This document shows, piece by piece, positions 10,945 through 24,674 of a stretch of DNA of 64,000 nucleotides. Positions within the stretch are counted from its first letter, which is position 1. The number at the start of each line of letters is the position of its first letter. Location of the stretch: positions 11,958 to 75,957 of the IMG/VR virus record IMGVR_UViG_3300044940_000144; one strand, given 5' to 3'. Position numbers and translations under genes: made by a program. The DNA is from a virus. The notes under the pieces are model-generated. The model ran no database searches and was not told the origin of the DNA. It worked only from the letters and a program-made list of their open reading frames with translations.

Positions 10945-12136
10945 CGGTTCCCCCTTTCCTTTTTGACATCCTCCCCACGGCTAAGGCCCGGGGATTCCCG
11001 CCTCGGCCTGCACCCTTTCCTCGAAAAGGAGAAGGATGTCTTACGGCGTCAGCAGCGGCAGGGTTGAGACCAGCCCTGGCCAGAATCGCTCTGGCAGCGT
11101 TTCTGTCGCGGTCGCTCACCAGCCCGCAGGCATGGCAGACGAACTCGCGCTTTGCCAGTTCCAACCGCTGCTTGGCTCTCGCTCCACAGTTGGAACAGGT
11201 CATAGTCGTGTAGGCGGGCGGCACCAGCACCACCTTCCGGCCCGCCCGCTCGGCGTGTTCGATGAGGATGCGTTTCGCGACCCCGATGGCGGCGTCCTGA
11301 GCCTTGCGGGCCATCCTGGTCTTGGCGAGGAACGACGGCTTGAAGTCCTCGACGGCGAGCGCCCCGTGGTCGCGCACGACGGACACAGCCCACTTGCGGG
11401 CGGTGTCCTGTCGCTGTCGGACGACTTTCTTGGCAACTTTGGCCGCGTCCTGTTTCGCCTTGCGGTAGCCGACGGACCCCGCCTTGCCCCGCTCTGGCTT
11501 ACGGCGAGCCATCCGTCGCTGGTACTTGGCGAGCGCCTTCGCCGCTTTGCGGGCGTACTGCGGATGCGGAAGGTCGTAGGCGGGGTCGGTGGTGGTGGCG
11601 ATTGTCTTGACGCCCCAGTCGATGCCGATGGCGGCATCCGAATCGGCCATCGGTTCGTCGTTCCGACGGACGACGAAACTGGCGTACCAATGGCCGAGAG
11701 AGTCACGGTACACCCGCACACTGGTCGGTTCGGACGGCAGGTCGCGGGACCACACGACAGGGATGCTCAGCCCACCGGCCAGACGCAGACGCCCATCCTT
11801 GAGCGAGAAGCCGCAGCGCGTGTAGTTGAGACTTGGCATGGTCCTGCGGGAGGACTTGAACTTGCGCCGCCCCTTGCCTTCGGCTCGCTTGGCGCGGAAG
11901 TTCCTCAACTCCTGCTGTTGCACGACGCTGCTACCGGCGCGGAGCCATTCGTGCTCGCGCCGCCATGCGGTCAGGTCACTGTCGCGGACCCATGTGCCCG
12001 TGGTCCGGAGCATGGCGACGGACTGGTTCCACAGCCAGCGGGTGCGGTGCCATTCGGAGATGAGCGCTCGCTCCGCCTTCGCACCGGGGCGCAGACGGTA
12101 CTGGTAGCGCAAGACCGTCCCCACGTATTGGATCAT
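10925..12136 (-). CDS. tnpB: RNA-guided endonuclease TnpB
   Basis: YQYRLRP N-terminus; RuvC GIDWG, AVEDF and DRDRNAA; CSNC/CHAC zinc finger. Alternative leaderless GTG start at 12124. The ORF reads through the right end. Confidence 0.92.
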   Translation of the reverse strand: MIQYVGTVLRYQYRLRPGAKAERALISEWHRTRWLWNQSVAMLRTTGTWVRDSDLTAWRREHEWLRAGSSVVQQQELRNFRAKRAEGKGRRKFKSSRRTMPSLNYTRCGFSLKDGRLRLAGGLSIPVVWSRDLPSEPTSVRVYRDSLGHWYASFVVRRNDEPMADSDAAIGIDWGVKTIATTTDPAYDLPHPQYARKAAKALAKYQRRMARRKPERGKAGSVGYRKAKQDAAKVAKKVVRQRQDTARKWAVSVVRDHGALAVEDFKPSFLAKTRMARKAQDAAIGVAKRILIEHAERAGRKVVLVPPAYTTMTCSNCGARAKQRLELAKREFVCHACGLVSDRDRNAARAILARAGLNPAAADAVRHPSPFRGKGAGRGGNPRALAVGRMSKRKGGTDDDEQT

Positions 12137-12204
12137 ACCAGCGACGCGTGTAGCCCCGATTCCTTCCCATGCCTGAAGGCAGGGGCTTCCTCGGGGGTCA
12201 TCTG
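10963..12204 (-). mobile_element. IS200/IS605-family element, tnpB only (IS1341-like)
   Basis: Left-end hairpin GAAGCCCCTGCCTTCAGGCATGGG after TTTAC; right end GAATCCCC..CCTTAGCCGTGGGGAGGATGTCAA; no tnpA. Confidence 0.85.
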
Positions 12205-12214
12205 GTAAAGCAAG

Positions 12215-12296
12215 TGGGGGCCGAGGGAGTCGAACCCTCATGCCTTGCGGCGCCGGATTTTGAGTCCGGTGCGTATGCCAGTTCCGCCAGACCCCC
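12215..12296 (-). tRNA. tRNA-Leu(CAA), CCA not encoded
   Basis: Acceptor GGGGGTC/GGCCCCC, anticodon arm CCGGA-CTCAAAA-TCCGG, long variable arm, GAGGG-TTCGACT-CCCTC. Confidence 0.95.
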
Positions 12297-12304
12297 GGTG
12301 GCCC

Positions 12305-12595
12305 TTACAGGGCCAGTTGGTCGTTCAAGTAGACGCGTAGCTCTGTTAGCCTGCCATCCGAGTAGCCGAGCGCCAGGTCGTAGATCTCGGCGCCCACACC
12401 GGCTTCGTCCACCGTGATCGCCCCGTAGACGTGGCCGTTGTCATCGGCGCGGTAGGCGACCTCGACATCGTCCCAACCCCAGGTCTTGAGATTGGCGACG
12501 ACCTCCCCGTTGGACGCGATGCCGTTGAGAAGCTCGTCGCCCCGGTTGATCCCGATGGTGCGGACCAACTCGATGAGTTTGACGATCACATTCAT
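12305..12595 (-). CDS. hypothetical protein
   Basis: AGGGGGAACC before ATG 12595. Confidence 0.7.
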   Translation of the reverse strand: MNVIVKLIELVRTIGINRGDELLNGIASNGEVVANLKTWGWDDVEVAYRADDNGHVYGAITVDEAGVGAEIYDLALGYSDGRLTELRVYLNDQLAL

Positions 12596-12658
12596 CGCGG
12601 TTCCCCCTGTGGAGGGGGCTTGAGCCTCCATGCCCAAGCCCCCTCCAGCTCAGATGTC

Positions 12659-13201
12659 CTATGCCGTGGATTCTGCCAGTGCCGTGCGCATCGCTTTGAC
12701 GAAGCGACCATCGGAGGCGACGGACCGAGACCACTCTTTCAGAGTGGCGGTGCCATCGTCCTCACGGGACATCATCGCAGTGATCCCACGCACTTCGTCG
12801 CGGCTGGCCATCGTGATGCAGACCGCCTCGTCCTTCCAGGGCGAGTCACCGATGCTGCCGTACTGCTCGACGATGACCTGCCCGATGTCCTGTTCCGGGA
12901 CACCGGGGTATGCCGCTCGCACCTGGTCGTTGATCTGGACGAACCAGGACGACACGACCATGCCAAGGGCGATGGCCTTCGTGCCGTTGGCGAACTGCGG
13001 GATCAAGACGCGGCACAGGATCTCTTTGCCTTCCTGGCTGTTCATGAACTCCTGCGGGATCGGGAAAACGATGATCTTCATGTTCGAAGACACGACGAAC
13101 AGCACCGGGGCGATGTCATCGTCCCAGTCGGTGAACTGGCCGACGTTTTCCTCGACGCCCTTTTGGATGACCTTTTCCAGGTCGTCTAGCACGCTGGCCA
13201 T
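12659..13201 (-). CDS. hypothetical protein
   Basis: 180 aa ORF coupled to the upstream gene. Confidence 0.75.
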   Translation of the reverse strand: MASVLDDLEKVIQKGVEENVGQFTDWDDDIAPVLFVVSSNMKIIVFPIPQEFMNSQEGKEILCRVLIPQFANGTKAIALGMVVSSWFVQINDQVRAAYPGVPEQDIGQVIVEQYGSIGDSPWKDEAVCITMASRDEVRGITAMMSREDDGTATLKEWSRSVASDGRFVKAMRTALAESTA

Positions 13202-13204
13202 GGC

Positions 13205-13495
13205 CTAGAGCCTCTGGAGAAGCGTCTCGCCGTACTCGTCGACCGAGGCGAGGAACCGCTTTTCGCCGCCGACGATCGCAATGACGATCCAGGCCAGCCA
13301 CCAAACTCCGAACGTGATCAGGCCGATCACAAAGTGGAGCAGGTGGTTGACCCTGTGACCCTTCACCAGCACCGCGTCGTAGTCGTTCTGCGACTCGATG
13401 CGGGCTCCTTGGACGACCTGGGTTCTGATGACCCTGGAGAGCGCTTCCTTGCGCTGCCAAGCCGTAGCCTGCGGCCTTGGCGTGTCTGTGCTCAT
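13205..13495 (-). CDS. small membrane protein
   Basis: NHLLHFVIGLITFGVWWLAWI hydrophobic segment; shared start motif. Confidence 0.8.
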   Translation of the reverse strand: MSTDTPRPQATAWQRKEALSRVIRTQVVQGARIESQNDYDAVLVKGHRVNHLLHFVIGLITFGVWWLAWIVIAIVGGEKRFLASVDEYGETLLQRL

Positions 13496-13644
13496 GGGTG
13501 GTTCCCCCTTTATCGGTGTTCTCCAATGGCCTGGCATCCCCCGGCAGAAAGCCGGGTTATCGGTTCACGGTTCAACGGCCCGGCCAACGCCAAGCCTCCC
13601 CGCGCAGTCACGGCGTGCCCCGCCGCCATGCGAGAGCATAGCTA

Positions 13645-13691
13645 GTGCAGTGTAGTCCTAGTCCTCGTTCGCCTCCTCGGGAACGACGATC
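13645..13691. repeat. 47-bp direct repeat, copy 1
   Basis: 46/47 identical to 14664-14710; contains TACACT on the minus strand. Confidence 0.9.
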
Positions 13692-13695
13692 AATC

Positions 13696-13749
13696 GCGTT
13701 TCGTCTCTGCCGTGAGACTCATCAGGCGGGCGGCATCAGCCCGCGACGC
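13696..13749 (-). ncRNA. hammerhead ribozyme type III (canonical)
   Basis: GCGUC^GCGGGC-ugaugcc-GCCCGC CUGAUGA GUCUC-acggca-GAGAC GAAA CGC; loops complementary (UGCC/GGCA); predicted cut 13745/13744. Confidence 0.93.
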
Positions 13750-13776
13750 CGGGGGCACCGAAGTGCCCCCCGCCTT

Positions 13777-14148
13777 TTACCGGATGCCACTGACCACCCA
13801 GTCAAGCATGGCTTGGACCTGATAGTCCGGGACCAGGACCGACGCGGGCGCCGCCGACGGATTGCCGGGATCGTGGATCGTGACCAGAAGGACACGGCCC
13901 GGGTTGTCGCGGATCCACGCAAAGACCTCGGGATACTCCTTCTCCATGCTTTCTGGTGGCTGCACACTATCCGGAGCCGACAAGTCGATCTGAGTGATCT
14001 GAAGGCACTCAGACCCAAGCAGGTCTGAGATGACCGCCACCCGGGAGTCGTCATTGACTCCTTTCGACTCCCACAGCGTGGTGAGAACCAGACCGTTCTG
14101 ACCAGACGATGCGCGCTTTTCGCGCCGAGGACCGATTCGGAATCCCAT
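13777..14148 (-). CDS. hypothetical protein, distant paralog of 14161-14547
   Basis: Shared P....WI/VxxNP.R..L motif. Confidence 0.7.
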   Translation of the reverse strand: MGFRIGPRREKRASSGQNGLVLTTLWESKGVNDDSRVAVISDLLGSECLQITQIDLSAPDSVQPPESMEKEYPEVFAWIRDNPGRVLLVTIHDPGNPSAAPASVLVPDYQVQAMLDWVVSGIR

Positions 14149-14160
14149 GGATCAATCCTT

Positions 14161-14547
14161 TCATCCGGCCATGATCCAGCCGATCAGGTCCCCGAGCTTT
14201 CCGGTGACGGCATCTGCGTCCAGGAACTTGGCGGTGGAGTCCTCCAGGCGCTCGCCCTTGTGGACCCACAGGGCCGCCTCAAGCAGTTGCTTGATGTCCA
14301 GGCAGCAGACAACTTGCGTCCCGTCTCCGGCCTCGACCACCAGCATCGCCGTCCGGTTGGGGTTGGCCTTCACCCAATCGATCAGATCGGGGTGGTCGCT
14401 GATGATCTCCCGCGGAACCTGCTCGTCGTCGTCGATGCGCAGGCTGAACAGCCCCCACGAGAAGTCTCCCGTGACCTCAAGGCCGTGGGCCATGCGATCG
14501 TCGTCCGAGACCTGGGCCAGCAGCAGCGGTTTCGGTTCGTAGCTCAT
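14161..14547 (-). CDS. hypothetical protein
   Basis: AAAGGGGGAACC before ATG. Confidence 0.8.
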   Translation of the reverse strand: MSYEPKPLLLAQVSDDDRMAHGLEVTGDFSWGLFSLRIDDDEQVPREIISDHPDLIDWVKANPNRTAMLVVEAGDGTQVVCCLDIKQLLEAALWVHKGERLEDSTAKFLDADAVTGKLGDLIGWIMAG

Positions 14548-14580
14548 TGGTTCCCCCTTTCATCGGTGCGTGCACGAAAT

Positions 14581-14638
14581 GGCGTTTCGGCCCTCGATTA
14601 GGCCATCATTCAGGCCGGGGAGATACCCCGACGACGCC
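14581..14638 (-). ncRNA. hammerhead ribozyme type III with core insertions
   Basis: GGCGUC^GUCGGGG-uaucu-CCCCGGC CUGAAUGA U GGCC-uaaucgag-GGCC GAAA CGCC; predicted cut 14633/14632. Confidence 0.8.
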
Positions 14639-14663
14639 CCCGGGCGCCGGAGCGCCCGGGTTC

Positions 14664-14710
14664 GTGCAGTGTAGTCCTAGTCCTCGTTCGCCTCGTCGGG
14701 AACGACGATC
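14664..14710. repeat. 47-bp direct repeat, copy 2 (3' end of the AAA gene)
   Basis: Matches 13645-13691. Confidence 0.9.
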
Positions 14711-16218
14711 GAGCCGAACACGGTGTCGAAGCGGTCGCGCACCTGCGCGCCCTGAACCTGCGACTTGACCTGCCGGGTGACCAGCTCGCGCATGGCCAGG
14801 TCGATCGTCGGCAGACGCTCGCCCTCGCCAGCGTTCAGCATCAGCTGAAGCTGGCCGCGCAGGCCGTTGGCCGCGTTGACGAAGTCCTGCGTCGTCAGCA
14901 CGTCCGGGCGCCCGCCCGTCCGGGTGACCGCGTAGCGGACGGCCCGGTCGATCGCCTCCTTGCAGAAGGCGGGCGTGTAGCCTGACATGGCCGAGTAAAT
15001 CGCCTCGAAGTCGAGCTTTGGGGCGAGCATGTCGGCCGGTATGACCGAGCGGATCAGGTCGCAGACCCCGTCCAGGTCGAGCGCGCCGAAGTGGATGGCG
15101 GCGTCCAGACGTCCCGGACGCATCATCCCCTTGTGGATGCGGTCGGCGTGGTTGGTGGTCATGACGATCATCAGCTCGGTGCCCTTCGCGGTGATCCCGT
15201 CGAAGATGTCGAGCAGGCGGGTGACGTTGTCGGACTCCCCGTTCTGGGCGATCGTATCGACGTCCTCGAAGAACACGACGGCGGGCTGGTAGAGCCGGGC
15301 CGTCGACACCACCGTGTCCAGGTCGTCCTTGCCCGGACGGCAGTAGATAAAGGTCCAGCCCTCCTCGACCGCAACTTGCGCGGTCAGGAAGGCCGCTAGC
15401 GTCTTGCCGGTGCCGAAGTCGCCCTCCAGCAGGACGGCGCGCTTCAGCGGGACCTTCAGCTCGCGCAAGATGTCCGCGTGGCGCAGCGGGGTCCACACGT
15501 TGGCGGCCAGCTGCTCACGGACGTCTTGCGAGTAGATGACCCGGTCGGGGTCGACCCCGGTGAGGTCGATGAACTCCGGCTCGGTCTGCCCGTCGATGGC
15601 CGCGCCCTTGTAGATCGAGTTGGAGGCCAGCTCCTGCTCGACCAACTTGAACAGGCCCTCGACGTGGCCGCGGAACTTGCGCGGCGCGTCGATCACCAGC
15701 CGGAACAAGGGGCCGTAGACGTAGTCGTACTTCTCGGTCGTGTGCATCACGCCCTCGAAGATCGGCACCTTGATCTTGCCCCACGGAACCTGCTCGGTGG
15801 CGTCCACGCCGACCGAGATGGTCCGCAGCTCCGGCGGGTACTGCCCGAAGAACGAGGACTGCGCCTTCTGGTGCCCGGTCGTGCCGAAGACCCGCTTGAG
15901 GGCCTTCGACAGCGCTCGCGCGCCGTCCAGCGGCCGGTATCGGAAGATCCGGCTGAACCGGGTCTCCTCCTCCTGCTGCTCGATGTGCGACTCCAGGAAG
16001 TTGATGACCCCGCGAAGGTCGCCCCGCATCGTCTCGGGGAAGATGTACTTCTGCCCCTCGAAGTGCAGGTTGTCCTCGGTCACCAGCTGTCCGCCGAGCT
16101 TAGCAAGCGTGTCCAGCAGGTCACGCTCGATGCGCTTGGTGGACGTCGGCGTCCTGACGGTTTTCTTCGAGGACGCCGAGACGTCCTCCTCCGCGGTGGT
16201 GATCGTGTCGTCAGACAT
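14677..16218 (-). CDS. AAA+ ATPase
   Basis: GDFGTGKT, FFEDVD, TTN and RPGRLD. Confidence 0.9.
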   Translation of the reverse strand: MSDDTITTAEEDVSASSKKTVRTPTSTKRIERDLLDTLAKLGGQLVTEDNLHFEGQKYIFPETMRGDLRGVINFLESHIEQQEEETRFSRIFRYRPLDGARALSKALKRVFGTTGHQKAQSSFFGQYPPELRTISVGVDATEQVPWGKIKVPIFEGVMHTTEKYDYVYGPLFRLVIDAPRKFRGHVEGLFKLVEQELASNSIYKGAAIDGQTEPEFIDLTGVDPDRVIYSQDVREQLAANVWTPLRHADILRELKVPLKRAVLLEGDFGTGKTLAAFLTAQVAVEEGWTFIYCRPGKDDLDTVVSTARLYQPAVVFFEDVDTIAQNGESDNVTRLLDIFDGITAKGTELMIVMTTNHADRIHKGMMRPGRLDAAIHFGALDLDGVCDLIRSVIPADMLAPKLDFEAIYSAMSGYTPAFCKEAIDRAVRYAVTRTGGRPDVLTTQDFVNAANGLRGQLQLMLNAGEGERLPTIDLAMRELVTRQVKSQVQGAQVRDRFDTVFGSIVVPDEANED

Positions 16219-16255
16219 AGATTGTTCCCCCCTTTAGGGTGTCGTGTTTGCCCAG

Positions 16256-16342
16256 CCTGATGGCTGGTGAGAACCCCTGCCTTTCGCAGGAGCTCTCATC
16301 AACCACCGTCAGGGCATGGGGGTGGCTCAAGACCACCCCCAT
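16256..16342 (-). promoter_or_regulatory. two intergenic stem-loops (possible RNase III-type processing site)
   Basis: Long imperfect hairpin at 16256-16313 and a GC hairpin at 16316-16342. Confidence 0.55.
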
Positions 16343-16357
16343 ACACCCGATACAGCC

Positions 16358-16822
16358 CTAGCTGCTAAGCAGCGCTAGGGCGGCATCGACCAGCGCGATA
16401 GCCTGGTTCTCGCCGGTCAGGACATCGTCGTTGTACGCTTCCACCAGACCGCGGCCATCGCCATCGGCACGGACGAAGCCGGTGTCGATGATGGCTTGGC
16501 ACAGAGCGCGCTCGGCCTCCTTCACCGGGTCTGGCGTGGAGTCGTCGTCCATGTACGTCGCATTCGACGTATCGACTCCGGTCACCAGGCCGAGCATGCC
16601 CTCAAGGCATGCTGCGCAAAAGACATCGCCCGAGTCGGGCGTGACCTCCATCGGGTTGCGGACCGCGAACTCATGGTCCTCCCCCTCGAAGGAGCGCACG
16701 ATCAGGTAATCGTTCCTGGTCCAGGCGATCTGACTGGATTCGTACAGCTCACGAATGCGCTGGAGAATCTCCGGCGCAGATGCGTGTCGCACGCACCCGA
16801 CGATGTCGGTCGTGACGGTCAT
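16358..16822 (-). CDS. hypothetical protein
   Basis: Shared start motif; 154 aa. Confidence 0.8.
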   Translation of the reverse strand: MTVTTDIVGCVRHASAPEILQRIRELYESSQIAWTRNDYLIVRSFEGEDHEFAVRNPMEVTPDSGDVFCAACLEGMLGLVTGVDTSNATYMDDDSTPDPVKEAERALCQAIIDTGFVRADGDGRGLVEAYNDDVLTGENQAIALVDAALALLSS

Positions 16823-16893
16823 ATGTGGTTCCCCCTTGTGTGGGTTTTCGATGTCCAGCCCTTCGTTATGGGCTGGGCGGCCTAAGCCACTTT

Positions 16894-16961
16894 GGGCTAC
16901 CGCTTCCCGGACGTCGGTGACGTCCGGGATTCATGCCTGCCCAGGGCAATCGTCAGGCGGC
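16894..16961 (-). ncRNA. hammerhead-like type I element with a variant core
   Basis: GCCGC CUGACGA U UGCC-cugggca-GGCA U GAAU CCCGGACGUC..GACGUCCGGG AA GCGGU AGCCC; same scaffold as the three type I copies, with compensatory changes. Confidence 0.7.
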
Positions 16962-19229
16962 TTACCGCTGATGACGACTGACCAGATGCGCGACCGTCGC
17001 GCGCATGCCGTCCTCAGCGTTCGACACCTCACCGTCGGTAGCGGCGTCAACCACAGCGGCCTTGCCCGAGAGCACTGCCTCCATGTCGGTGTCGATGGAG
17101 TCCTGGCACAGCAGCCAGTAGACGTTCACCATCTCGGCCGTTTGACCGATCCGGTGAACCCGGTCCTCGGCCTGTCGCATGTCCTTGGGCGTCCAGCCCA
17201 GTTCCAGAAACGCGACGTGCGACGCCGCGTGCAGGGTGAACCCTGCCTGCCCGGCCATGAGGCTGACGACGATCAGCCGCGTGTCCGGGTCGTTCTGGAA
17301 CCGCTGCACGGACGCATCGTTGGCGTCGTTAGCGCCTCCGATGACCCGCACCGCGCCCGGGAAGGCCTTGTAGAGCGCCTCCTGGGCCTCGCGGTGGTGG
17401 GCGAACAGCACCAGCTTTTCATCGCTGGACTCCAGGAACTCCTTCGTCCACTCGATGGCGTCGCGCACCTTGCCTTTCGCCGCCAGGCGACGAAGGGCGG
17501 TGAGCCGCGCCAGTGCTTCCGCTTGCAGCACCCTGCCGGGGTCGTAGCCGTTGGCAAGCAGCCACGCCACGAAGTCACGTTCGGCAAGCTCGTATTCGGC
17601 CCGATTCGTCAGGTCGACGTCGATGACCGAACGTAGCTTGGGCGGCAGGTCAGGCATGACCTGAGCCTTCGTGCGCCGCACGTAGCAGGATGACCGGAGC
17701 CGCTGATTGAGCTCCTCAAGGTTCGCGGCACCGCCGTATGTCGTGCCCCACTTGCTGTAGATGGGCTCGCAATAGCGGTTCTTGAACTGCCTGGGGCCAC
17801 CGAACTCGGCGATCCGCCCCATCATCTTGAGAAGCGGGACAAGCTCCACCGGCCGGTTGACGACCGGGGTGCCCGTCAAAAGCAGGACGTTTTCGACCTG
17901 CTTGGAGAGCCACAAAAGCGCACGGGTGCGCTTTGCGTTCTCATTTTTGGCGTAGTGGGCCTCGTCCACGACGAGCATCTTGGGCTGGATCTTCGCAAGC
18001 GCTTCGATCCAGCCTGCGGGCTCGCGCGTCCGGGAGCCGGGCACGGCGTGGAGGTCTCCGAGGATGTCGTAGTTGACGATGACGACGTCCGCGTCAGCCA
18101 CCAAGCCGTAGTCCGGCTTTTTGCCCGCCAGAACGGCGATGTTCAGGCCGGGCATCCACTTGTTGATCTCGCGCTCCCAGTTCCGCTTCAGAGCGGCCGG
18201 GCACACGATGACCAACGGCGCGGCATCCAGATACCACGCCACGCCGAGAGCCTGGAGGGTTTTCCCCAGGCCCATCTCATCGGCGATGAGCACGCCGCCA
18301 GAGGCAAGCCTCTTGATGGCGTACGCGACCCCTGCCCGCTGAAAGCCGAACAGGGACTCGCCCTCGGGGCCGAAGCCGTCGAGGTCAACGACCGCATCAG
18401 TGGCCATGGATTCCTCGATCGAGGTCTCCCGGTCCGCCTGCTGATCGACGAACGAAATCGCCTCATTAGAGACGTCCCATCCGTGACGCAGGGCGTATGC
18501 GACAAGCTCCGGACCGTTCAGGGTGCTGACTTCCCAGATCCGGTTCACCTTGTTCCAGCGCCGCCCCTGCAGATTCCGAAGGAACGTAAGGTTCACTTCG
18601 AAGTCGGGGTGGCCCGGGGTCAGGTACACTGCGAAGGTCTTGCCGTCGCTGTCCAGATCAACCGCCGCAGGAACGATCTCATGCGGCGGCGGGGCCGACG
18701 CAATGTACTCGTCGGCCTTGTCGGTCAGCTTGAACGAGTGCTTCTTGGCGAACTCCGCGACTGCCGAAGCAGAACTCAGCGGAACGCGGTTGAAGCGCCC
18801 GTCCCAATGGCGACCTGGCAACGTCCGGACATCGGTAACGAGATCGGCGTCGTAGCGGAATGCGATGACGAACTCATCGCCTTCCACGTCGATCAGCTTG
18901 GACGACTGCAGAGCTTTTTCCCGAAGCACCTTGCGTCCCGTTGCCTGCATGCGCTCGCGCCCGTAGTAGGTGCTCGCGACCTGGCCCGGGGGCTCGATGG
19001 CATCAAGATTGATCCCGGCGTCGGACAGCTGACGACGGTAGTGGCGAAGCATGGAATATGCCTCCCACGTCTCCTCGTCCGACCACGTGCCCGGGTCGGA
19101 CGCTGCCAGACCGTGGCCGAACGAGGCGTCGGGCTTGGAGTACCCTTGCCCGTCCTCGGATTCGGCCCAGTCGCACCGTGACGCCAGGTAACTGGCGGCC
19201 CGATGCAGAACGGTCCTTGTATCCGTCAT
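16962..19229 (-). CDS. SNF2-family (SMARCAL1/HARP-like) helicase
   Basis: ADEMGLGKT, DEAH, LTGTP, QAEDRVHRIGQ; N-terminal GRHWDG/GRRWN repeats. Confidence 0.92.
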   Translation of the reverse strand: MTDTRTVLHRAASYLASRCDWAESEDGQGYSKPDASFGHGLAASDPGTWSDEETWEAYSMLRHYRRQLSDAGINLDAIEPPGQVASTYYGRERMQATGRKVLREKALQSSKLIDVEGDEFVIAFRYDADLVTDVRTLPGRHWDGRFNRVPLSSASAVAEFAKKHSFKLTDKADEYIASAPPPHEIVPAAVDLDSDGKTFAVYLTPGHPDFEVNLTFLRNLQGRRWNKVNRIWEVSTLNGPELVAYALRHGWDVSNEAISFVDQQADRETSIEESMATDAVVDLDGFGPEGESLFGFQRAGVAYAIKRLASGGVLIADEMGLGKTLQALGVAWYLDAAPLVIVCPAALKRNWEREINKWMPGLNIAVLAGKKPDYGLVADADVVIVNYDILGDLHAVPGSRTREPAGWIEALAKIQPKMLVVDEAHYAKNENAKRTRALLWLSKQVENVLLLTGTPVVNRPVELVPLLKMMGRIAEFGGPRQFKNRYCEPIYSKWGTTYGGAANLEELNQRLRSSCYVRRTKAQVMPDLPPKLRSVIDVDLTNRAEYELAERDFVAWLLANGYDPGRVLQAEALARLTALRRLAAKGKVRDAIEWTKEFLESSDEKLVLFAHHREAQEALYKAFPGAVRVIGGANDANDASVQRFQNDPDTRLIVVSLMAGQAGFTLHAASHVAFLELGWTPKDMRQAEDRVHRIGQTAEMVNVYWLLCQDSIDTDMEAVLSGKAAVVDAATDGEVSNAEDGMRATVAHLVSRHQR

Positions 19230-19259
19230 GGTCCCCCCTTGTTGTGGTGTACGGTAGGC

Positions 19260-19323
19260 GAGCTACCGCGACCTCCCTTTGCAGGGAGGTTTCGGCCTTG
19301 CTCAAGGGCCATCGTCAGGCGGC
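19260..19323 (-). ncRNA. hammerhead ribozyme type I with pseudoknot (B1)
   Basis: GCCGC CUGACGA U GGCC-cuugagcaa-GGCC GAAA CCUCCCU-gcaa-AGGGAGG UC^GCGGU AGCUC; predicted cut 19270/19269. Confidence 0.9.
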
Positions 19324-19341
19324 ATGTAGCTTGATTCCACT

Positions 19342-19560
19342 TCAAGAATCGTCGCCTTTCCTGAGGACGAGCCGCTGCCCCCGGCCGAGGCCGAGGGAGC
19401 ATTCGAAGTAGTCGAAGCACGCTTTGCACAGATACCCCCAGGAACCGCCAGTGGCGGGAATGCGGGCATCTGCGTATGCCTCGCCGTGGGCGGCGTCGAT
19501 GTCGCAGAACGGGATCCTCTCGACGAGGATCGTGTTCGTGGACTTGCCAGGCTCCGACAT
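19342..19560 (-). CDS. small Cys-containing phage protein
   Basis: A.ADA....GSWGYLCKACF...LGLGRGQ motif; shared start motif. Confidence 0.8.
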   Translation of the reverse strand: MSEPGKSTNTILVERIPFCDIDAAHGEAYADARIPATGGSWGYLCKACFDYFECSLGLGRGQRLVLRKGDDS

Positions 19561-19584
19561 GATTCCCCCTTTGGTGCGTTCTCC

Positions 19585-19647
19585 CGCCTCCGTGCGACTC
19601 GTCAGGCCCCGTCCTGGGGCGACGCCCCCCTAGGGGGGCGTTTCGTT
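19585..19647 (-). ncRNA. hammerhead ribozyme type II (A1)
   Basis: AAC GAAA CGCCCCCC-ua-GGGGGGCG UC^GCCCC-aggac-GGGGC CUGACGA GUCGCACGGAGGCG; predicted cut 19621/19620. Confidence 0.88.
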
Positions 19648-19654
19648 CTTGTGT

Positions 19655-20056
19655 CTAGTAGTCCGCAGGCAGCATGGCCGTGTAGAAACCGGCCTCGTTC
19701 TGGACGAACCACACCCGCTCCGACCGGTCGGGCAGCCAGGACGTCAGCAGATAGCCGTCTTGCTTGTCCTCGGTCATCACCGCCTTATCGGCGGTGACTC
19801 TCAAGACGAGCGACGCAAGCGCACGGCGCACCTGCTCCGGCATGTCCACGCCGACCGTTTTGTCGATGCACTTATCGATCTTGCCCATCAGGTGGGACGT
19901 CGCCCTGGTGACGACGCTCCGCGCCACCGGCCACGGAGCGTTTCGCAGGAACACGCCCCAATCGGTGCAGTTGATGAGCACGCCCTCGTCAAGGGCTACC
20001 TCGTCCGAGTAGAACGAATAGATGACGGGTATGTCATCGAACGGGTCGTCGGACAT
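19655..20056 (-). CDS. DUF6573-like hypothetical protein
   Basis: VIYSFY...ALDEGVL N-terminus and TAMLPADY C-terminus. Confidence 0.65.
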   Translation of the reverse strand: MSDDPFDDIPVIYSFYSDEVALDEGVLINCTDWGVFLRNAPWPVARSVVTRATSHLMGKIDKCIDKTVGVDMPEQVRRALASLVLRVTADKAVMTEDKQDGYLLTSWLPDRSERVWFVQNEAGFYTAMLPADY

Positions 20057-20105
20057 TGTTTGTCCCCCCTTTTTGGTTGTGTGCGTTCCCATAATGCAGT
20101 AGCGC

Positions 20106-20168
20106 GAGCTACCGCGACCCCCCGCCAGGGGGGGTTTCGGCCTTGCTCAAGGGCCATCGTCAGGCGGC
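20106..20168 (-). ncRNA. hammerhead ribozyme type I with pseudoknot (B2)
   Basis: Same core as B1 with a different stem III; predicted cut 20116/20115. Confidence 0.9.
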
Positions 20169-20172
20169 GTCG

Positions 20173-20442
20173 CTAAGACTCGTCCGATTGCCAGTACTCC
20201 CCGGAGTTGTGCTGGAAGACCCCCTCGGAGGTGTCAGGCACATACTCGCTCGGGTCCATCACCACGCGGGCCAGGACCTTGAAATCGCCGGAGATGTACC
20301 CGCGCTCCCGGGCCTTGCGAAGGCCCTTGAGCAGGTGCTCCACGGCGGCCTTGCCGTAGCCGTTGTGGACGTCGAAACCGTCGGCGTAGTCGCCGACGCG
20401 CTCGATGGTGACCGAGTAGCTGTACACGGTGTCGTCGCTCAC
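20173..20442 (-). CDS. hypothetical protein, paralog of 20547-20804
   Basis: GTG start after AAGGGGGGACC; SDDTVY...ARERGYISGD. Confidence 0.8.
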   Translation of the reverse strand: MSDDTVYSYSVTIERVGDYADGFDVHNGYGKAAVEHLLKGLRKARERGYISGDFKVLARVVMDPSEYVPDTSEGVFQHNSGEYWQSDES

Positions 20443-20475
20443 CCTTGGTCCCCCCTTGTGTGGTTTTTCGCTTTT

Positions 20476-20539
20476 CGCCTCCGTGCGACTCGTCAGGCCC
20501 CGTCCTGGGGCGACGCCCCCCCTAGGGAGGCGTTTCGTT
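20476..20539 (-). ncRNA. hammerhead ribozyme type II (A2)
   Basis: Same architecture as A1; predicted cut 20512/20511. Confidence 0.88.
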
Positions 20540-20546
20540 TCGCGGG

Positions 20547-20804
20547 CTACATCTTCATCCACCGGTAGCTGTCCTCGAACTGGCCCATCGCGGGCTCCAG
20601 GTAGTCGTCCGGGTCGGTGTACACCGCGCGGGACCGGACCCGGATGTCGCCAACGATGTAGCCACGGTCGCGGGCCTCTTGGAACTCCCGGAGGAGCTGC
20701 TCGGCCGCGCCCTTGGCAGTGCCGTCGTGGTGCTCGCGACCGTCCTGATCATCGCCGACCCGCACGACGTGCAGCAGGTAGCGGTAGACAGTGTCGTCGC
20801 TCAC
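20547..20804 (-). CDS. hypothetical protein, paralog of 20173-20442
   Basis: SDDTVY...ARDRGYIVGD. Confidence 0.8.
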   Translation of the reverse strand: MSDDTVYRYLLHVVRVGDDQDGREHHDGTAKGAAEQLLREFQEARDRGYIVGDIRVRSRAVYTDPDDYLEPAMGQFEDSYRWMKM

Positions 20805-20840
20805 GTTGGTTCCCCCTTCGTAGTGATGATGCAGTAGCGC

Positions 20841-20903
20841 GAGCTACCGCGACCCCCCGCCAGGGGGGGTTTCGGCCTTGCTCAAGGGCCATCGTCAGGC
20901 GGC
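20841..20903 (-). ncRNA. hammerhead ribozyme type I with pseudoknot (B3)
   Basis: Essentially identical to B2; predicted cut 20851/20850. Confidence 0.9.
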
Positions 20904-20905
20904 TT

Positions 20906-21364
20906 TTAGCGTCCGGAGCGCGCTCGGCGCCGATCCTCGTACTCGTCCACGGGGTGGCGAACGATGCGGCGCTCGTCGTCCAGGTCGTAGAGGCTGACCG
21001 GCGAGCACGCCGGGTGCCAGGTCTCGCCACCGCCGTAGGCGATGGTGTGGCCACTGGCGAACTGCTTACCGCAGGAGCGGCAGTGGCCGGGGTACCTCGC
21101 CGTTATCAGCTTGACCGGGCGGACCACGTTCTGGTCGGCCTCGCCAGCGGCGCGCACGAGCTCGCGCATCGCGGCCTCCAGGGCGGCGATGTGGCGCTTG
21201 TGCGAGGCAATCTCCTCAGCCTGACGCTCAATGACGTCGGCCATGTTGAAGATCACGTCGTCGAGCGACCTTACCTTCGCATCGACGTTGGCGAGCGCGC
21301 AGTCGACGGTGTCGAGCTTCTCAGCGAGCGACGCGACCGTCGGACGCACAACAGTAGTACCCAT
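20906..21364 (-). CDS. coiled-coil plus zinc-finger protein
   Basis: Heptad-rich N-terminus; ARYPGHCRSCG...WHPAC. Confidence 0.8.
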   Translation of the reverse strand: MGTTVVRPTVASLAEKLDTVDCALANVDAKVRSLDDVIFNMADVIERQAEEIASHKRHIAALEAAMRELVRAAGEADQNVVRPVKLITARYPGHCRSCGKQFASGHTIAYGGGETWHPACSPVSLYDLDDERRIVRHPVDEYEDRRRARSGR

Positions 21365-21391
21365 GGTTCCCCCTTGTGTGTTCCCGCTTCC

Positions 21392-21455
21392 CGCCTCCGT
21401 GCGACTCGTCAGGCCCCATCCTGGGGCGACGCCCCCAATAGAGGGGCGTTTCGTT
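21392..21455 (-). ncRNA. hammerhead ribozyme type II (A3)
   Basis: Core intact, stems I and III vary; predicted cut 21428/21427. Confidence 0.88.
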
Positions 21456-21461
21456 CGCGGG

Positions 21462-21695
21462 CTAGACGATTTTGGCGTCGTCCGGCGTGCGGCGGCGAAC
21501 CCAGACGTCGAACTGCTCGACTCCTGAGCAGTTACGGGCCTTCAGGCTGAAGCCGCTAGATGTGCCATCGCCGTAGTGAATCTTCGATAGCACGCGGCCG
21601 TCGGAGCACAGGACATAGGTCGTACTGACCCCGGATCCGTACTCGACCCGCCTACGGGCGACCTCAGTCGCGCCGCGAGCACTGATCTTCGCCAT
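21462..21695 (-). CDS. hypothetical protein
   Basis: Shared start motif; 77 aa. Confidence 0.8.
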   Translation of the reverse strand: MAKISARGATEVARRRVEYGSGVSTTYVLCSDGRVLSKIHYGDGTSSGFSLKARNCSGVEQFDVWVRRRTPDDAKIV

Positions 21696-21726
21696 CGTTC
21701 CCCCCTTGTAGTGCGTTCCCCATCAT

Positions 21727-21794
21727 CGCCTTCCGTGCGACTCATCAGGCCCCAATCCATAGGGCGACGCTCCCCTGACGGGGAGCGTTTCGTT
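21727..21794 (-). ncRNA. hammerhead ribozyme type II (A4)
   Basis: CUGAUGA core; stem III CGCUCCCC-guca-GGGGAGCG (covarying); predicted cut 21766/21765. Confidence 0.88.
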
Positions 21795-21800
21795 TAGGGA

Positions 21801-22679
21801 CTACTGACGCCGGAGCGTCTTGCGCGGCCCGCGCTTGGTCTGGACGACCTCGGGCTCGGCCTCGGCCTTCGCCTCCGGCTCGGCCTTCGCCTCCGGCTCG
21901 GTCCGGGCCCCGACGGGCTTGTTCTTGCCGTTGACCCCGACGGACACCTTGAGAGTGCCGGTGGGGTTCTCCGTCGCCGGAGCCTCGCTGACGGCCTCGG
22001 CCTTGTCCGCCGCGTGCTTCTCAGCGAACCCATCGATGACCTTCTGCAGGGCGGACTTCTCCTTGTCCAGCTCGCGAAGCTGGGACTGGTAGTCGTTCGC
22101 CTGCTGCTCGGTCTTCATGTGCTCGATGAGCGTTGACATCGCCGAGAACACGAAGATCACGTCGGACGACAGGCCGGGCATGACCCGCTCGACCGCCTGC
22201 GCGACGGCGTTGCGGAAGGGGTCGGTGACCTTCCGACGGCCGACCATGACGTCGACCTCGTACATGGCGTAGGCCATCACCATCATCCCGAACGCGAAGG
22301 CGTCGCGCGCCTTCGAGACGTGGGCGATCTTCTCCGACGCCGTCATCCGCGTCGGCCGCTGGAAGGCGCTCCCGCCGACGTGCTGGGTCAGGATCTCGAC
22401 CGCCGCCTTGAACTGGGTCGTGAGAATCTCCCGGTCCAGCTTCGGCATGTCGAGGATCGACCCGTCTTTGAACGGGTTCGCGGCCTCCTCGGCGATCGTC
22501 GCCACCACGTCGAGGAACTCGGCGAACTGGGCCGAGTTTTCGGTCGTGGTGTGCTCCGCGCCGCCGAAGACGTGCTCAATCACGTCGTCCTTGGTCATCT
22601 TGCCGATCGCGTCGAGAAGGTCGCCCTCCTCGGTGGGGATCAGGTCGACCTTGCCGGGACGCTTGTAGGACGTGCTCAT
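21801..22679 (-). CDS. hypothetical protein, first gene of the early operon
   Basis: 292 aa with a coiled coil and EAKAEP repeats; shared start motif. Confidence 0.85.
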   Translation of the reverse strand: MSTSYKRPGKVDLIPTEEGDLLDAIGKMTKDDVIEHVFGGAEHTTTENSAQFAEFLDVVATIAEEAANPFKDGSILDMPKLDREILTTQFKAAVEILTQHVGGSAFQRPTRMTASEKIAHVSKARDAFAFGMMVMAYAMYEVDVMVGRRKVTDPFRNAVAQAVERVMPGLSSDVIFVFSAMSTLIEHMKTEQQANDYQSQLRELDKEKSALQKVIDGFAEKHAADKAEAVSEAPATENPTGTLKVSVGVNGKNKPVGARTEPEAKAEPEAKAEAEPEVVQTKRGPRKTLRRQ

Positions 22680-22706
22680 GGGGTTCCCCCTTTTGGGTGT
22701 GTGTTT

Positions 22707-22772
22707 TGCCTCCGTGCGACTCGTCAGGCCCCGTCATAGGGCAACACCCCCCCGGCGGGGGGGTGTTTCGTT
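22707..22772 (-). ncRNA. hammerhead ribozyme type II (A5), GUU cleavage triplet
   Basis: GAAA CACCCCCCC..GGGGGGGUG UU^GCCC..GGGC CUGACGA G; predicted cut 22743/22742. Confidence 0.85.
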
Positions 22773-23156
22773 TGTGGACCGCCCCGAAGGACGTCCACAC
22801 ACACACACACACATAAAGGGTAGGGAACCGATATTTATCGCCTCACTGCACCCAATCCCGTCCGGGGACGGGCAGCGTGGCACGGACAGGGTCCAGTATG
22901 TACGCTGGAACCGAGTGTCGCCAGGGCAGGGGGTCCACAGGACTAACGCACGCGCACGCGTGCGTGACCCTGCATGCTGAGCCCCTCGCGAACGCGCGTC
23001 GCACGCGACGCGCGCGCCAACTTCGAGCCCTCCCTGACCTGCGACCGCCGCGCATAAGCACTCCGTGCGACGCGAGTCCAACTCGCCGCCCGCGCGACCC
23101 CGACGTTCGTGCCCGCGCGACCGCCGCAGCAACCGCGCGTCCGAAATGACACTTCC

Positions 23157-23183
23157 ATGCTAGCACCCCCCATCATGCAATGT

Positions 23184-23186
<3 letters not shown>
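23157..23186 (-). promoter_or_regulatory. strong sigma70-type promoter TTGACA-N18-(TG-c)TAGCAT
   Basis: Perfect -35 at 23181-23186; -10 at 23157-23162. Confidence 0.8.
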
Positions 23187-23599
<413 letters not shown>

Positions 23600-23614
23600 T
23601 TGCCGCCTGAGTGC

Positions 23615-23722
23615 CGGCTACCCCCCCCCGGGGGGGCCGCTACCGCCCCCCGGGGGGGCCGCTACCGCCCCCCGGGGGGGCTACCGCCACGAAGCCCCCC
23701 GCCGGGGAACCGGCGGCTACCG
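23615..23722. repeat. GCTACC repeats with C6-9/G7 palindromes
   Basis: GCTACC(G)CCCCCCGGGGGGG repeated about three times, plus further GCTACC copies. Confidence 0.85.
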
Positions 23723-24289
23723 CATGGGTGCCACCGAGCCCGTCCCGGTCTCCCAGGACAGCAAAAACACCTGGCAGTCGACCACGTCCACCGTGCGCGC
23801 GGACACGATGACGCGGGAGATTTCACGGCGCTTGATCCAACGCTTGGTGACGCTCATGCGGACGATCTGGACGTCGTCCTTCCAGGCGTGCTGATTGAGC
23901 GCGTCCATGACGAGCTTGGCGGCGTTGTCCAAGTCGGGCTTGGTCGCGTACGGATGAGGGAAGCGCTTACCGGACGCCGACAGCGCCCCGGACGACAGCG
24001 TATGCGACCCCGGACGCCGCAGGCAGACAGTGATATCGACCTCGATCGGCTTGTCCTGCCCCAAAAAACACGCCCCGGCGCGTCTCCAAGCCGTCTGGAT
24101 CATCCGTTCGGCGATCTTGGTCCGGTCGCTGGTGCGCGTGTACACGCGGCCGCTGCTGCTAATGCTGAACCGCGGCCGCTCCTTGGTCGGGGCGTAGCGG
24201 TTCGAGTAAGGGTCCTTGGTACCCGCGTTCAGCCCGCCTGGGCCGTGAATGGGGATATCGAACTGGAAGTCACTGACGAGTCTGGTCAT
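23717..24289 (-). CDS. rusA: RusA-family Holliday junction resolvase
   Basis: KERPRF, KPDLDNAAKLVMDALN, W.DD.QI. Confidence 0.9.
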   Translation of the reverse strand: MTRLVSDFQFDIPIHGPGGLNAGTKDPYSNRYAPTKERPRFSISSSGRVYTRTSDRTKIAERMIQTAWRRAGACFLGQDKPIEVDITVCLRRPGSHTLSSGALSASGKRFPHPYATKPDLDNAAKLVMDALNQHAWKDDVQIVRMSVTKRWIKRREISRVIVSARTVDVVDCQVFLLSWETGTGSVAPMR

Positions 24290-24674
24290 GGCTGGGTGGC
24301 TTCCACCTGTCGTCCTTATCCGGATGATCGCGCAGGATCCCGGCGATGGCCAAGGCGTGGAAAACCAAGTGCCCGTAGTGAGCCATGCCGGACTCCGGGT
24401 CGATGTCCTCGCCACGGGCGATCGCGGTCAGATGGCGAAACGCAGAGGCGACCGACAACGACACCGGGTAGCCCTTGCGCCAGTTCTGGGGCGTGTACTT
24501 GGAAGCCCCATACCCGTACACCCGTGCGACCTCGTCCATGAGGTCCCACGGGATCAGATGGTACGCCTCAGGCTTGGCGTCCTTCATAGCGCCCGTATCG
24601 GGATCGGTGTAGCGGATCTCGGCCAGCTGCTGCTGGGCCAGATCGGCGGCGTTGGTGATCTTGCGCACCGTCAA
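24270..24674 (-). CDS. DUF5664 dATP/dGTP diphosphohydrolase-like protein
   Basis: LIP...VARVYGYGASKY..NWRKG...RHL...GEDIDPESG..H. Confidence 0.85.
   Translation of the reverse strand: MTVRKITNAADLAQQQLAEIRYTDPDTGAMKDAKPEAYHLIPWDLMDEVARVYGYGASKYTPQNWRKGYPVSLSVASAFRHLTAIARGEDIDPESGMAHYGHLVFHALAIAGILRDHPDKDDRWKPPSHDQTRQ

What the first reader, a model, noticed from the sequence alone, without database searches (positions are those of the whole stretch)
13745..22742. Predicted products are 5'-OH / 2',3'-cyclic-phosphate single-gene RNAs: stabilised or circular mRNAs
Known: hammerhead products carry 5'-OH and 2',3'-cyclic phosphate ends. 5'-OH ends are poor substrates for 5'-monophosphate-dependent RNase E/J, and this end pair is the RtcB substrate. 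Seen: each gene sits between two cut sites and keeps a hairpin at each end. Inference: the units could be long-lived, could circularise, or could be re-ligated in new orders.
Basis: inference. Interest (0 to 1): 0.8.

Follow-up and report, generated by a model that had tools for sequence, protein, structure and literature searches.

The report
Hammerhead-punctuated phage operon, linear single-gene mRNAs
A 76-kb uncultured phage has self-cleaving hammerhead ribozymes at nearly every gene junction of one operon; the cut sites and end hairpins are as described, but this layout and the circular-mRNA idea were published in 2011, and nothing here favours circles over ordinary linear mRNAs.

Summary
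On the minus strand between 22773 and 13693 there are 9 canonical hammerheads: 5 type II, 3 type I and 1 type III. There are also 2 core variants. All lie in intergenic gaps of one operon driven by a promoter at 23186-23157.

Genes 1-8 each sit alone between two cut sites. Genes 9+10 and 11+12 form two-gene units. Every predicted product starts and ends in a hairpin.

The 5'-OH and 2',3'-cyclic-phosphate ends follow from hammerhead chemistry if the ribozymes are active, which was not tested. Stabilisation by the end hairpins is plausible. However, the claim that 5'-OH protects against RNase J contradicts the glmS/RNase J1 precedent.

Circularisation has no support:
- The phage encodes no RtcB or other recognisable RNA ligase.
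- The two ends of a unit are not complementary, and each is locked in its own hairpin.
- Circles of units 1 and 2 would rebuild an active hammerhead.
- Perreault et al. 2011 described hammerheads flanking single prophage genes, proposed circular or spliced products, and did not detect them.

Comparably dense arrays occur in other genomes. This is a rich new example of a known arrangement whose function remains open. Other first-stage notes of this scan cover the same stretch.

The parts
23157..23186 (-). Likely operon promoter: TTGACA, 18-nt spacer, TAGCAT with an extended -10 TG. It gives a leader of about 410 nt.
   Evidence: the only sigma-70-like site in 12000-24500, matching 10 of 12 positions. 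Function inferred.
22711..22773 (-). Type II hammerhead II_a, N17 (a U) at 22743. It removes the leader. Unit 1 starts at 22742.
   Evidence: Stem III carries a G-C to A-U double change.
21801..22679 (-). Gene 1, 292 aa, no informative family match (unit 1, 22742-21766).
21732..21795 (-). Type II hammerhead II_b, N17 at 21766.
21462..21695 (-). Gene 2, 77 aa (unit 2, 21765-21428).
21396..21456 (-). Type II hammerhead II_c, N17 at 21428.
20906..21364 (-). Gene 3, 152 aa, only weak sub-threshold coiled-coil family hits (unit 3, 21427-20851).
20831..20903 (-). Type I hammerhead I_d, N17 at 20851, followed by a hairpin at the 5' end of the downstream product.
20547..20804 (-). Gene 4, 85 aa, paralogue of gene 5 (unit 4, 20850-20512).
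   Evidence: 51% identity.
20480..20540 (-). Type II hammerhead II_e, N17 at 20512.
20173..20442 (-). Gene 5, 89 aa, GTG start (unit 5, 20511-20116).
20096..20168 (-). Type I hammerhead I_f, N17 at 20116, 99% identical to I_d over 78 nt.
19655..20056 (-). Gene 6, 133 aa (unit 6, 20115-19621).
19589..19648 (-). Type II hammerhead II_g, N17 at 19621.
19342..19560 (-).
19251..19323 (-). Type I hammerhead I_h, N17 at 19270.
16962..19229 (-). Gene 8, 755 aa, SNF2-family helicase (unit 8, 19269-16904).
16885..16961 (-). Type I variant: U15.1-A16.1, GAA cleavage triplet, N17 at 16904, and an extra U before G12. Loop II and tail read GGGC/GCCC where the standard copies read GAGC/GCUC.
   Evidence: A natural U15.1-A16.1 hammerhead cleaves slowly (PMC3088659). 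Activity here unknown.
16358..16822 (-). Gene 9, 154 aa, DUF6197. First gene of the two-gene unit 9 (16903-14633).
16236..16360 (-). Highly structured gene 9/10 spacer with no recognisable ribozyme. It is the only junction between genes 1 and 11 without a hammerhead.
   Evidence: -76.2 kcal/mol, z = -6.66. No Rfam match. No look-alike in the fetched loci.
14677..16218 (-). Gene 10, 513 aa, AAA ATPase (phrog_10440).
14581..14662 (-). Hairpin followed by a type III variant whose core reads CUGAAUGA (extra A after A6), N17 at 14633.
   Evidence: The A6a variant has low activity in PMC3088659. Not found by Rfam.
13777..14547 (-). Genes 11 (128 aa) and 12 (123 aa), distant paralogues, forming unit 10 (14632-13745).
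13693..13771 (-). Strong hairpin (13771-13751) followed by type III hammerhead III_z, N17 at 13745.
   Evidence: (36.1 bits, E 8e-5).

Best explanation
The operon is transcribed as one long RNA from the promoter at 23186-23157. As each hammerhead folds it cuts itself, chopping the transcript into about ten linear mRNAs. Eight carry one gene and two carry two genes.

The ribozyme topologies are arranged so that every product keeps a hairpin at both ends. At type II sites, stem III ends the upstream RNA and stem I starts the downstream one. At type I sites, the whole ribozyme stays on the upstream RNA, and the downstream RNA refolds its freed stem I strand into its own 5' hairpin. At type III sites, an extra hairpin sits just before the cut.

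Each product then has a 40-85 nt 5' UTR that carries the same strong ribosome-binding motif, AAGGGGGAAC. The likely effect is insulation. Each cistron is freed from its neighbours and from the leader, and gets a defined, nuclease-resistant pair of ends. This allows gene-specific stability and translation from a single promoter. The two slow core variants may delay separation of the later genes.

Shown here: the motifs, their positions, covariation and predicted end structures. Inferred: that they cleave in vivo, and that cleavage raises stability or expression.
For: Nine consensus hammerheads lie on the coding strand, only at gene junctions, and none elsewhere in 64 kb.

The helices are kept by compensatory change. 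Across the 5 type II copies, 98.8% of cells are paired, with 2 double changes. In 61 type I relatives including the 3 copies here, 10 of 15 pairs show double changes.

End hairpins are predicted for every unit. In 234 distinct type I relatives, the first base of the 3' product is paired in 70%, against 52% in shuffles and 14% in downstream windows. The 5' hairpin is therefore a family trait.

Type II stem II is only 2 bp, so the products should separate at once.

The shared ribosome-binding motif precedes 11 of the 12 genes.

Precedents:
- Tandem prophage hammerheads cleave about 2-kb native transcripts into the expected pieces in vitro, and also in E. coli; 14 of 18 consensus hammerheads tested were active (PMC3088659).
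- RiboJ raises mRNA about 2-fold and protein 2-10-fold (PMC6206723).
- 5' hairpins stabilise bacterial mRNAs (PMC3997798).
Against: No activity or transcript data exist for this uncultured phage.

Rfam scores for the type II and III copies are below gathering score. Rfam does not find the type I copies.

No tertiary pseudoknot could be assigned to the type II copies.

A 5'-OH end is an entry point for RNase J1 in Bacillus, so cleavage could destabilise rather than stabilise.

The nearest relatives of the AAA ATPase gene have no hammerheads, so the ribozymes are not tied to these genes.

The leader stays strongly complementary to the gene 1 UTR after cleavage (-35 kcal/mol). That is not simple insulation.
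Confidence: 0.65

Rival explanations
1. Circular or re-ordered mRNAs. After self-cleavage, a host RtcB ligase joins the 5'-OH and 2',3'-cyclic-phosphate ends, within a unit or between units. This would give exonuclease-proof, translatable circles or shuffled transcripts.
For: The ends would be the right substrate (PMC8782182).

RtcB is present in two genomes that carry the same type I hammerhead family. It is also present in about 40% of 151 sampled genomes of that actinobacterial class.

Circles of units 3-10 would not rebuild a hammerhead at the junction.

Bacterial ribosomes start internally at ribosome-binding sites, so a circle could be translated (established knowledge).
Against: The phage has no RtcB, Rnl1, Rnl2-type ligase or LigT.

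Duplex energy between the two ends of the same unit (-27.3 kcal/mol) equals that between ends of different units (-26.1 +/- 6.7). No 5'/3' pairing appears in whole-unit folds.

The 5' base is paired inside a hairpin.

Circles of units 1 and 2, and any join of two ends from same-type hammerheads, would re-cleave.

Arrays made only of type I copies elsewhere would all re-cleave.

Perreault et al. looked for spliced or circular products and found none.

The host is unknown.
Confidence: 0.07
2. Cleavage as a decay or timing switch. The cuts expose 5'-OH ends to RNase J-type 5' exonuclease, or uncouple genes. They would thereby limit or time expression rather than stabilise it. The slow core variants would act as delays.
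For: The glmS precedent: a ribozyme-made 5'-OH end triggers RNase J1 decay (PMC3997798).

Two variants have cores reported to cleave slowly.

Perreault et al. suggest regulated cleavage for phage variants.
Against: Every 5' end is sequestered in a hairpin from base 1, which is the classic protective feature.

Strong 3' hairpins are kept on every product.

No ligand-binding or switch domain is evident.
Confidence: 0.12
3. Cassette borders. The ribozymes travel with small genes as modular units. They persist mainly because their repeated sequences mediate gain, loss and shuffling of genes by DNA recombination. The effect on expression would be secondary.
For: Near-identical copies occur (78 nt at 99% identity).

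A 47-nt direct repeat brackets the two-gene unit together with both type III hammerheads.

The flanked genes are small, non-conserved and include paralogue pairs.

The same type I family, 97% identical over 35 nt, occurs in an alphaproteobacterium.

Relatives of the ATPase gene lack hammerheads.
Against: Strict strand and junction placement, intact catalytic cores and compensatory changes show selection on the RNA fold rather than on DNA repeats alone.

The phage has no reverse transcriptase for an RNA-mediated route.
Confidence: 0.12
4. The motifs are inactive relics or chance look-alikes.
For: All Rfam hits are below the curated thresholds. Four of 18 consensus hammerheads were inactive in vitro in PMC3088659.
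Against: Nine perfect cores with three helices each lie at gene junctions on one strand, against about 0.25 expected by chance. Compensatory changes are present.
Confidence: 0.04

Closest known systems
Clustered hammerheads flanking genes in prophages (Perreault et al. 2011, PMC3088659; reviewed in PMC6155905 and PMC6765202)
   Same: Several hammerheads of mixed types lie on one strand, flanking single small genes or short gene blocks in phage DNA. Type II copies have a 2-bp stem II, and type I copies have a loop II-tail pseudoknot. Natural A6a and U15.1-A16.1 variants are described there. The same proposals were made: single-gene mRNAs, or spliced/circular products.
   Different: This array is larger than any found in my sample: 11 motifs in 9.1 kb, with all three topologies in one operon of a complete 76-kb myophage. 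The densest others were 7 in 3 kb and 6 in 3.3 kb. No close relative exists in the collections searched.
RiboJ and related synthetic ribozyme insulators (PMC6206723)
   Same: A hammerhead upstream of a ribosome-binding site cuts off the upstream RNA. It leaves a 5'-OH hairpin and a standard 5' UTR. Transcript and protein levels rise.
   Different: RiboJ is engineered, uses a type III sTRSV ribozyme, and is placed once per gene. Here the elements are natural, of three topologies, and they also shape the 3' end of the preceding mRNA.
Hammerhead circular RNAs (viroids, satellite RNAs, retrozymes; PMC7229834) and RtcB-made circles
   Same: The same cleavage chemistry and end groups. Host tRNA-ligase or RtcB-type enzymes close such ends.
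   Different: Those units are small and non-coding, and are flanked by the same ribozyme, so the circle rebuilds it. They replicate by rolling circle or reverse transcription. Here the units are 0.34-2.4 kb protein-coding mRNAs, mostly with unlike ribozymes at the two ends, and the phage has no reverse transcriptase. No evidence of circles exists.
glmS ribozyme-controlled mRNA decay (PMC3997798)
   Same: Self-cleavage in a 5' UTR leaves a 5'-OH on the coding fragment.
   Different: glmS cleavage is ligand-dependent and destabilises the mRNA through RNase J1. Here cleavage looks constitutive and the 5' end is hairpin-capped.

Membership tests
Hammerhead ribozyme | Conserved core: C3-U4-G5-A6-N7-G8-A9, G12-A13-A14, the A15.1-U16.1 pair, and H17 at the cut site. 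| tested here: met
   Met exactly by 9 copies. The type I copies have one extra U between A9 and stem II, as do most relatives fetched with a pattern that required that U. Not met by the two variants: U15.1-A16.1 plus an extra U at 16885-16961, and A6a at 14581-14638.
Hammerhead ribozyme | Three helices around the core, kept by compensatory change. | tested here: met
   Type II: 98.8% of cells paired, 2 pairs with double changes, slid controls 42-57%. Type I: RNAalifold recovers stems I-III in 61 sequences, with 10 of 15 pairs showing double changes. Type III: single copy, helices present.
Hammerhead ribozyme | Tertiary contact between stems I and II (loop-loop contact or pseudoknot). | tested here: inconclusive
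   Type I: loop II GAGC pairs with tail GCUC, and the variant copy has GGGC with GCCC. Type II: no convincing pseudoknot between loop I and the 3' tail. Only a possible 3-bp mini-hairpin stacked on the 2-bp stem II.
Hammerhead ribozyme | Score at or above Rfam's curated gathering threshold. | tested here: not met
   Type II: 26.5-33 bits against a threshold of 37. Type III: 36.1 against 48.5. Type I: no Hammerhead_1 hit, only 15.7 bits to RAGATH-1-hammerhead. This is a limit of the models, not a defining property of the ribozyme.
Hammerhead ribozyme | Site-specific self-cleavage giving 5'-OH and 2',3'-cyclic-phosphate ends. | not testable with these tools
   Needs in vitro transcription or end-specific RNA sequencing.
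Gene-flanking hammerhead clusters of phages and prophages | Several hammerheads on the coding strand, at junctions of single genes or short gene blocks, in phage DNA. | tested here: met
   Comparable arrays occur in Clostridia, Inquilinus and viral contigs.
RtcB-dependent circular RNA | A ligase is available. | tested here: inconclusive
   None in the phage. The host is unknown. RtcB was found in 59-60 of 151 sampled genomes of one actinobacterial class and in two hammerhead-bearing genomes.
RtcB-dependent circular RNA | The two ends are brought together by pairing. | tested here: not met
   The two ends of a unit pair no better than ends of different units. No terminal pairing appears in whole-unit folds.
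RtcB-dependent circular RNA | Back-junction molecules exist. | not testable with these tools
   No transcriptome of this phage is available. The one metagenome scan returned only chance matches.
Viroid/retrozyme-like hammerhead circles | Small non-coding units bounded by the same ribozyme, which is rebuilt on closure, with rolling-circle or reverse-transcriptase propagation. | tested here: not met
   Only units 1 and 2 would rebuild a hammerhead. The units encode proteins. The phage has no reverse transcriptase.

The most novel reading that the evidence does not exclude
In infected cells a host RtcB-type ligase closes the mixed-flank units (3-8) into translatable circular mRNAs, or joins units in new orders. 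A phage would then express early genes from exonuclease-proof circles. The alternation of type II and type I ribozymes would serve to keep the junctions from re-cleaving.
Probability: 0.06. Interest if true: 0.85.

Novelty: new member of a known kind. Interest (0 to 1): 0.4.

Why it matters
What bacterial and phage hammerheads are for has been an open question since 2011. This phage is among the cleanest natural test beds seen here: eleven ribozyme positions, three topologies, two slow-core variants and a uniform ribosome-binding site, all in one 9-kb operon.

It would allow direct tests of whether ribozyme punctuation sets mRNA stability, translation, timing or topology. It also points to natural design rules for multi-gene insulators:
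- hairpins at both ends of every product;
- a 2-bp stem II for fast product release;
- a 5' hairpin that forms after cleavage.

As a claim about circular mRNAs, it adds nothing yet beyond the published speculation.

Tried and rejected
Close relatives were sought for comparison and none was found. Megablast and blastn against phage and plasmid records gave nothing. An exact type II tail motif gave nothing in viral contigs or genome contigs. Protein-based searches found only 57% (AAA ATPase) and 33% (helicase) relatives, which lack synteny and hammerheads.

The single metagenome scan, with a 15-base type II motif, returned 120 loci. Almost all were chance matches. It therefore yielded neither relatives nor permuted junctions.

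I tested whether stem I strands of neighbouring type I ribozymes are cross-complementary, which would favour docking of a unit's own ends. Stem I is almost invariant across the whole family, so the test cannot discriminate: 95% of neighbour pairs reach 4 bp, against 86% of random pairs.

I tested whether the flanks of each type II hammerhead pair with each other. Only the first one does, between the leader and the gene 1 UTR.

The order of type II and type I copies is not significantly alternating: 2 same-type neighbours of 7, against about 3.25 expected by my own count.

The only P-loop kinase hit in the phage is a Zeta-toxin family protein, not a polynucleotide kinase.

The gene 9/10 spacer could not be parsed as a hammerhead, twister, pistol, hatchet or HDV-like ribozyme, either by eye or by Rfam at E up to 10.

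An early guess of a promoter near 22850 was dropped in favour of the much stronger site at 23186-23157.
Full report
WHAT THE WINDOW IS. The window is bases 11958-75957 of a 75,957-bp IMG/VR virus record with direct terminal repeats, rated complete. It encodes a tail sheath, baseplate, tape measure, portal and capsid protease, so it is a myovirus. GC content is about 65%. Almost every gene lies on the minus strand. The host is unknown. The best protein matches are to Gordonia and Mycobacterium phages at about 42% identity.

THE OBSERVATION. Rfam in E-value mode finds one type III and five type II hammerheads on the minus strand between 13693 and 22773. All score below gathering score: 26-36 bits, E 8e-5 to 0.07.

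Core-pattern scans find the same five type II sites, against 0.25 expected by chance. They also find three type I sites and the type III site, against 0.23 expected.

I wrote a strict finder that demands the full core, the A15.1-U16.1 pair, H17 and all three helices. It returns exactly nine hammerheads in the 64-kb window:
- all are on the minus strand;
- all lie between genes;
- none is found anywhere else.

The same finder gives 3 hits in 640 kb of unrelated metagenome DNA.

N17 lies at these positions:
- type II: 22743, 21766, 21428, 20512, 19621;
- type I: 20851, 20116, 19270;
- type III: 13745.

Covariation supports the folds. The five type II copies pair in 98.8% of cells, with two double changes in stem III, while slid controls pair in 42-57%. 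RNAalifold on 61 type I sequences, three of them from this window, recovers stems I-III. Ten of the 15 pairs show double changes.

TWO MORE JUNCTIONS HOLD CORE VARIANTS. At 16885-16961 a type I copy has U15.1-A16.1, a GAA triplet and an extra U before G12. Its loop II and 3' tail read GGGC and GCCC where the standard copies read GAGC and GCUC. That is a compensatory change in the loop II-tail pseudoknot.

At 14581-14638 a type III copy has an extra A after A6.

Both kinds of variant were described as natural hammerheads that cleave slowly (PMC3088659).

The gene 9/10 spacer (16236-16360) has no recognisable ribozyme. It is, however, exceptionally structured, with z = -6.66.

THE UNITS. A strong promoter sits at 23186-23157 on the minus strand. 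The first hammerhead would remove a leader of about 410 nt. The predicted products are ten RNAs of 338-2366 nt:
- Eight carry one gene each (genes 1-8).
- One carries genes 9 and 10 (DUF6197 and an AAA ATPase).
- One carries genes 11 and 12.

The 5' UTRs are 40-85 nt and the 3' UTRs are 32-72 nt. Eleven of the twelve genes are preceded by the same motif, AAGGGGGAAC. That motif is otherwise rare in the genome.

Every 3' end is a strong hairpin followed by one unpaired base. At the two type III sites it is a separate hairpin followed by six bases. Every 5' end can form a hairpin from its first base.

The type I case is informative because the 5' hairpin is not part of the ribozyme. The freed stem I strand pairs with a downstream complement instead. 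In 234 distinct relatives, the first base of the 3' product is paired in 70%. The figure is 52% after shuffling and 14% in windows further downstream.

HOW IT MOST LIKELY WORKS. Co-transcriptional self-cleavage turns one long RNA into discrete linear mRNAs. Each has hairpin-capped ends and a standard translation start.

The 2-bp stem II of the type II copies and the switch hairpin of the type I copies both favour fast, irreversible product release.

This matches three precedents:
- Perreault et al. 2011 showed that tandem prophage hammerheads cut about 2-kb native transcripts into the expected pieces in vitro and in E. coli.
- The engineered analogue RiboJ raises mRNA about twofold and protein two- to tenfold (PMC6206723).
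- 5' hairpins protect bacterial mRNAs (PMC3997798).

A 2',3'-cyclic phosphate cannot be extended by poly(A) polymerase or PNPase, which would further protect a structured 3' end. That rests on established enzymology and was not tested here.

Activity in vivo and the direction of the stability effect are inferred.

The end chemistry is sound if the ribozymes are active. The RNase E argument is sound. The RNase J argument is not: RNase J1 starts exonucleolytic decay on the 5'-OH glmS product. Any protection must therefore come from the hairpin rather than from the hydroxyl group.

For circles I found no support.
- The phage has no RtcB, T4 Rnl1-type or Rnl2-type ligase, or LigT.
- Its only small P-loop kinase is a Zeta-toxin homologue.
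- It has no reverse transcriptase.
- The two ends of a unit pair no better (-27.3 kcal/mol) than ends of different units (-26.1 +/- 6.7). They never pair in whole-unit folds.
- Joining the ends in silico shows that circular units 1 and 2, and any join of two same-type ends, would rebuild a canonical hammerhead and re-cleave. Units 3-10 would not.

Host RtcB is plausible but not known. It is present in the Amycolatopsis and Inquilinus genomes that carry the same type I family. It was found in 59-60 of 151 sampled genomes of that class. That tally includes the unpublished genomes G008, G016, G031, G037 and G044.

The idea itself is not new. Perreault et al. wrote that successive cleavage and ligation could yield spliced or circular products, and reported that they could not detect either. 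Later reviews still call the function open.

HOW UNUSUAL IT IS. The type I form found here is widespread. It has an extra U after A9 and a GGCC-based stem II. 

Dense arrays exist elsewhere:
- seven type I copies in 3 kb of a Clostridia MAG;
- six copies of all three types in 3.3 kb of Inquilinus limosus, whose type I core is 97% identical to ours over 35 nt;
- six copies in 2.6 kb of a viral contig.

The present array, with 11 positions in 9.1 kb, is the largest I saw. It is the same kind of thing.

VERDICT. Hairpin-capped linear single-gene mRNAs are likely, stabilisation is plausible, and circular or re-ordered mRNAs are unsupported but not excluded. This is a new, rich member of a known arrangement.

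Noticed in passing
window 16236-16360 (minus strand): The gene 9/10 spacer folds into three strong hairpins (-76 kcal/mol, z = -6.66). It is the only junction between genes 1 and 11 without a hammerhead, and it matches no Rfam family or fetched locus. New ribozyme classes were found in the past next to known ones, so it is a candidate processing element.
   Followed up: partly
window 13645-13691 and 14664-14710: A 47-nt direct repeat (98% identical), covering the last codons of the AAA ATPase gene plus its flank. It brackets genes 11-12 together with both type III hammerheads, as if a ribozyme-bounded two-gene cassette had been inserted.
   Followed up: partly
window 22790-22840 versus 22675-22715 (minus strand): The leader just upstream of the first hammerhead is strongly complementary to the gene 1 UTR, including its ribosome-binding site (-35.3 kcal/mol against -19 +/- 4 for shuffles). 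It could close the open stem II and mask the start site. The other type II sites show nothing similar.
   Followed up: partly
window 23200-23700: About 470 nt of GGCT-based short repeats lie upstream of the promoter (74% GC, strong skews). Further upstream, at about 23620-23700, are repeated G/C-run hairpins. No ORF. Purpose unknown.
   Followed up: no
type I hammerheads in L125-L361 and window 19251-19269, 20096-20115, 20831-20850: Across this type I family, the strand that forms stem I before cleavage (GCGG...) can pair with a nearby downstream CCGC after cleavage. This buries the new 5'-OH end. It acts as a built-in release switch and 5' cap.
   Followed up: partly
window 49948-50832 (minus strand): A 294-aa Zeta-toxin family kinase (E 1e-24) lies among the structural genes.
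   Followed up: no
L004 (Mycobacterium phage McProf), about position 4246, minus strand of the locus: My finder reports one type II hammerhead candidate among small membrane-protein genes. Rfam did not report it at E up to 1.
   Followed up: no
L003 (Gordonia phage Fryberger) 7844-10464: The AAA ATPase homologue sits in a three-gene block of opposite orientation, inserted between the tail assembly chaperone and tape measure genes.
   Followed up: no
window 1074-1225 and 12215-12296 (minus strand): An EGFOA RNA match above Rfam's gathering score (47.5 bits) and a tRNA gene. The tRNA lies just downstream of the operon's later genes.
   Followed up: no
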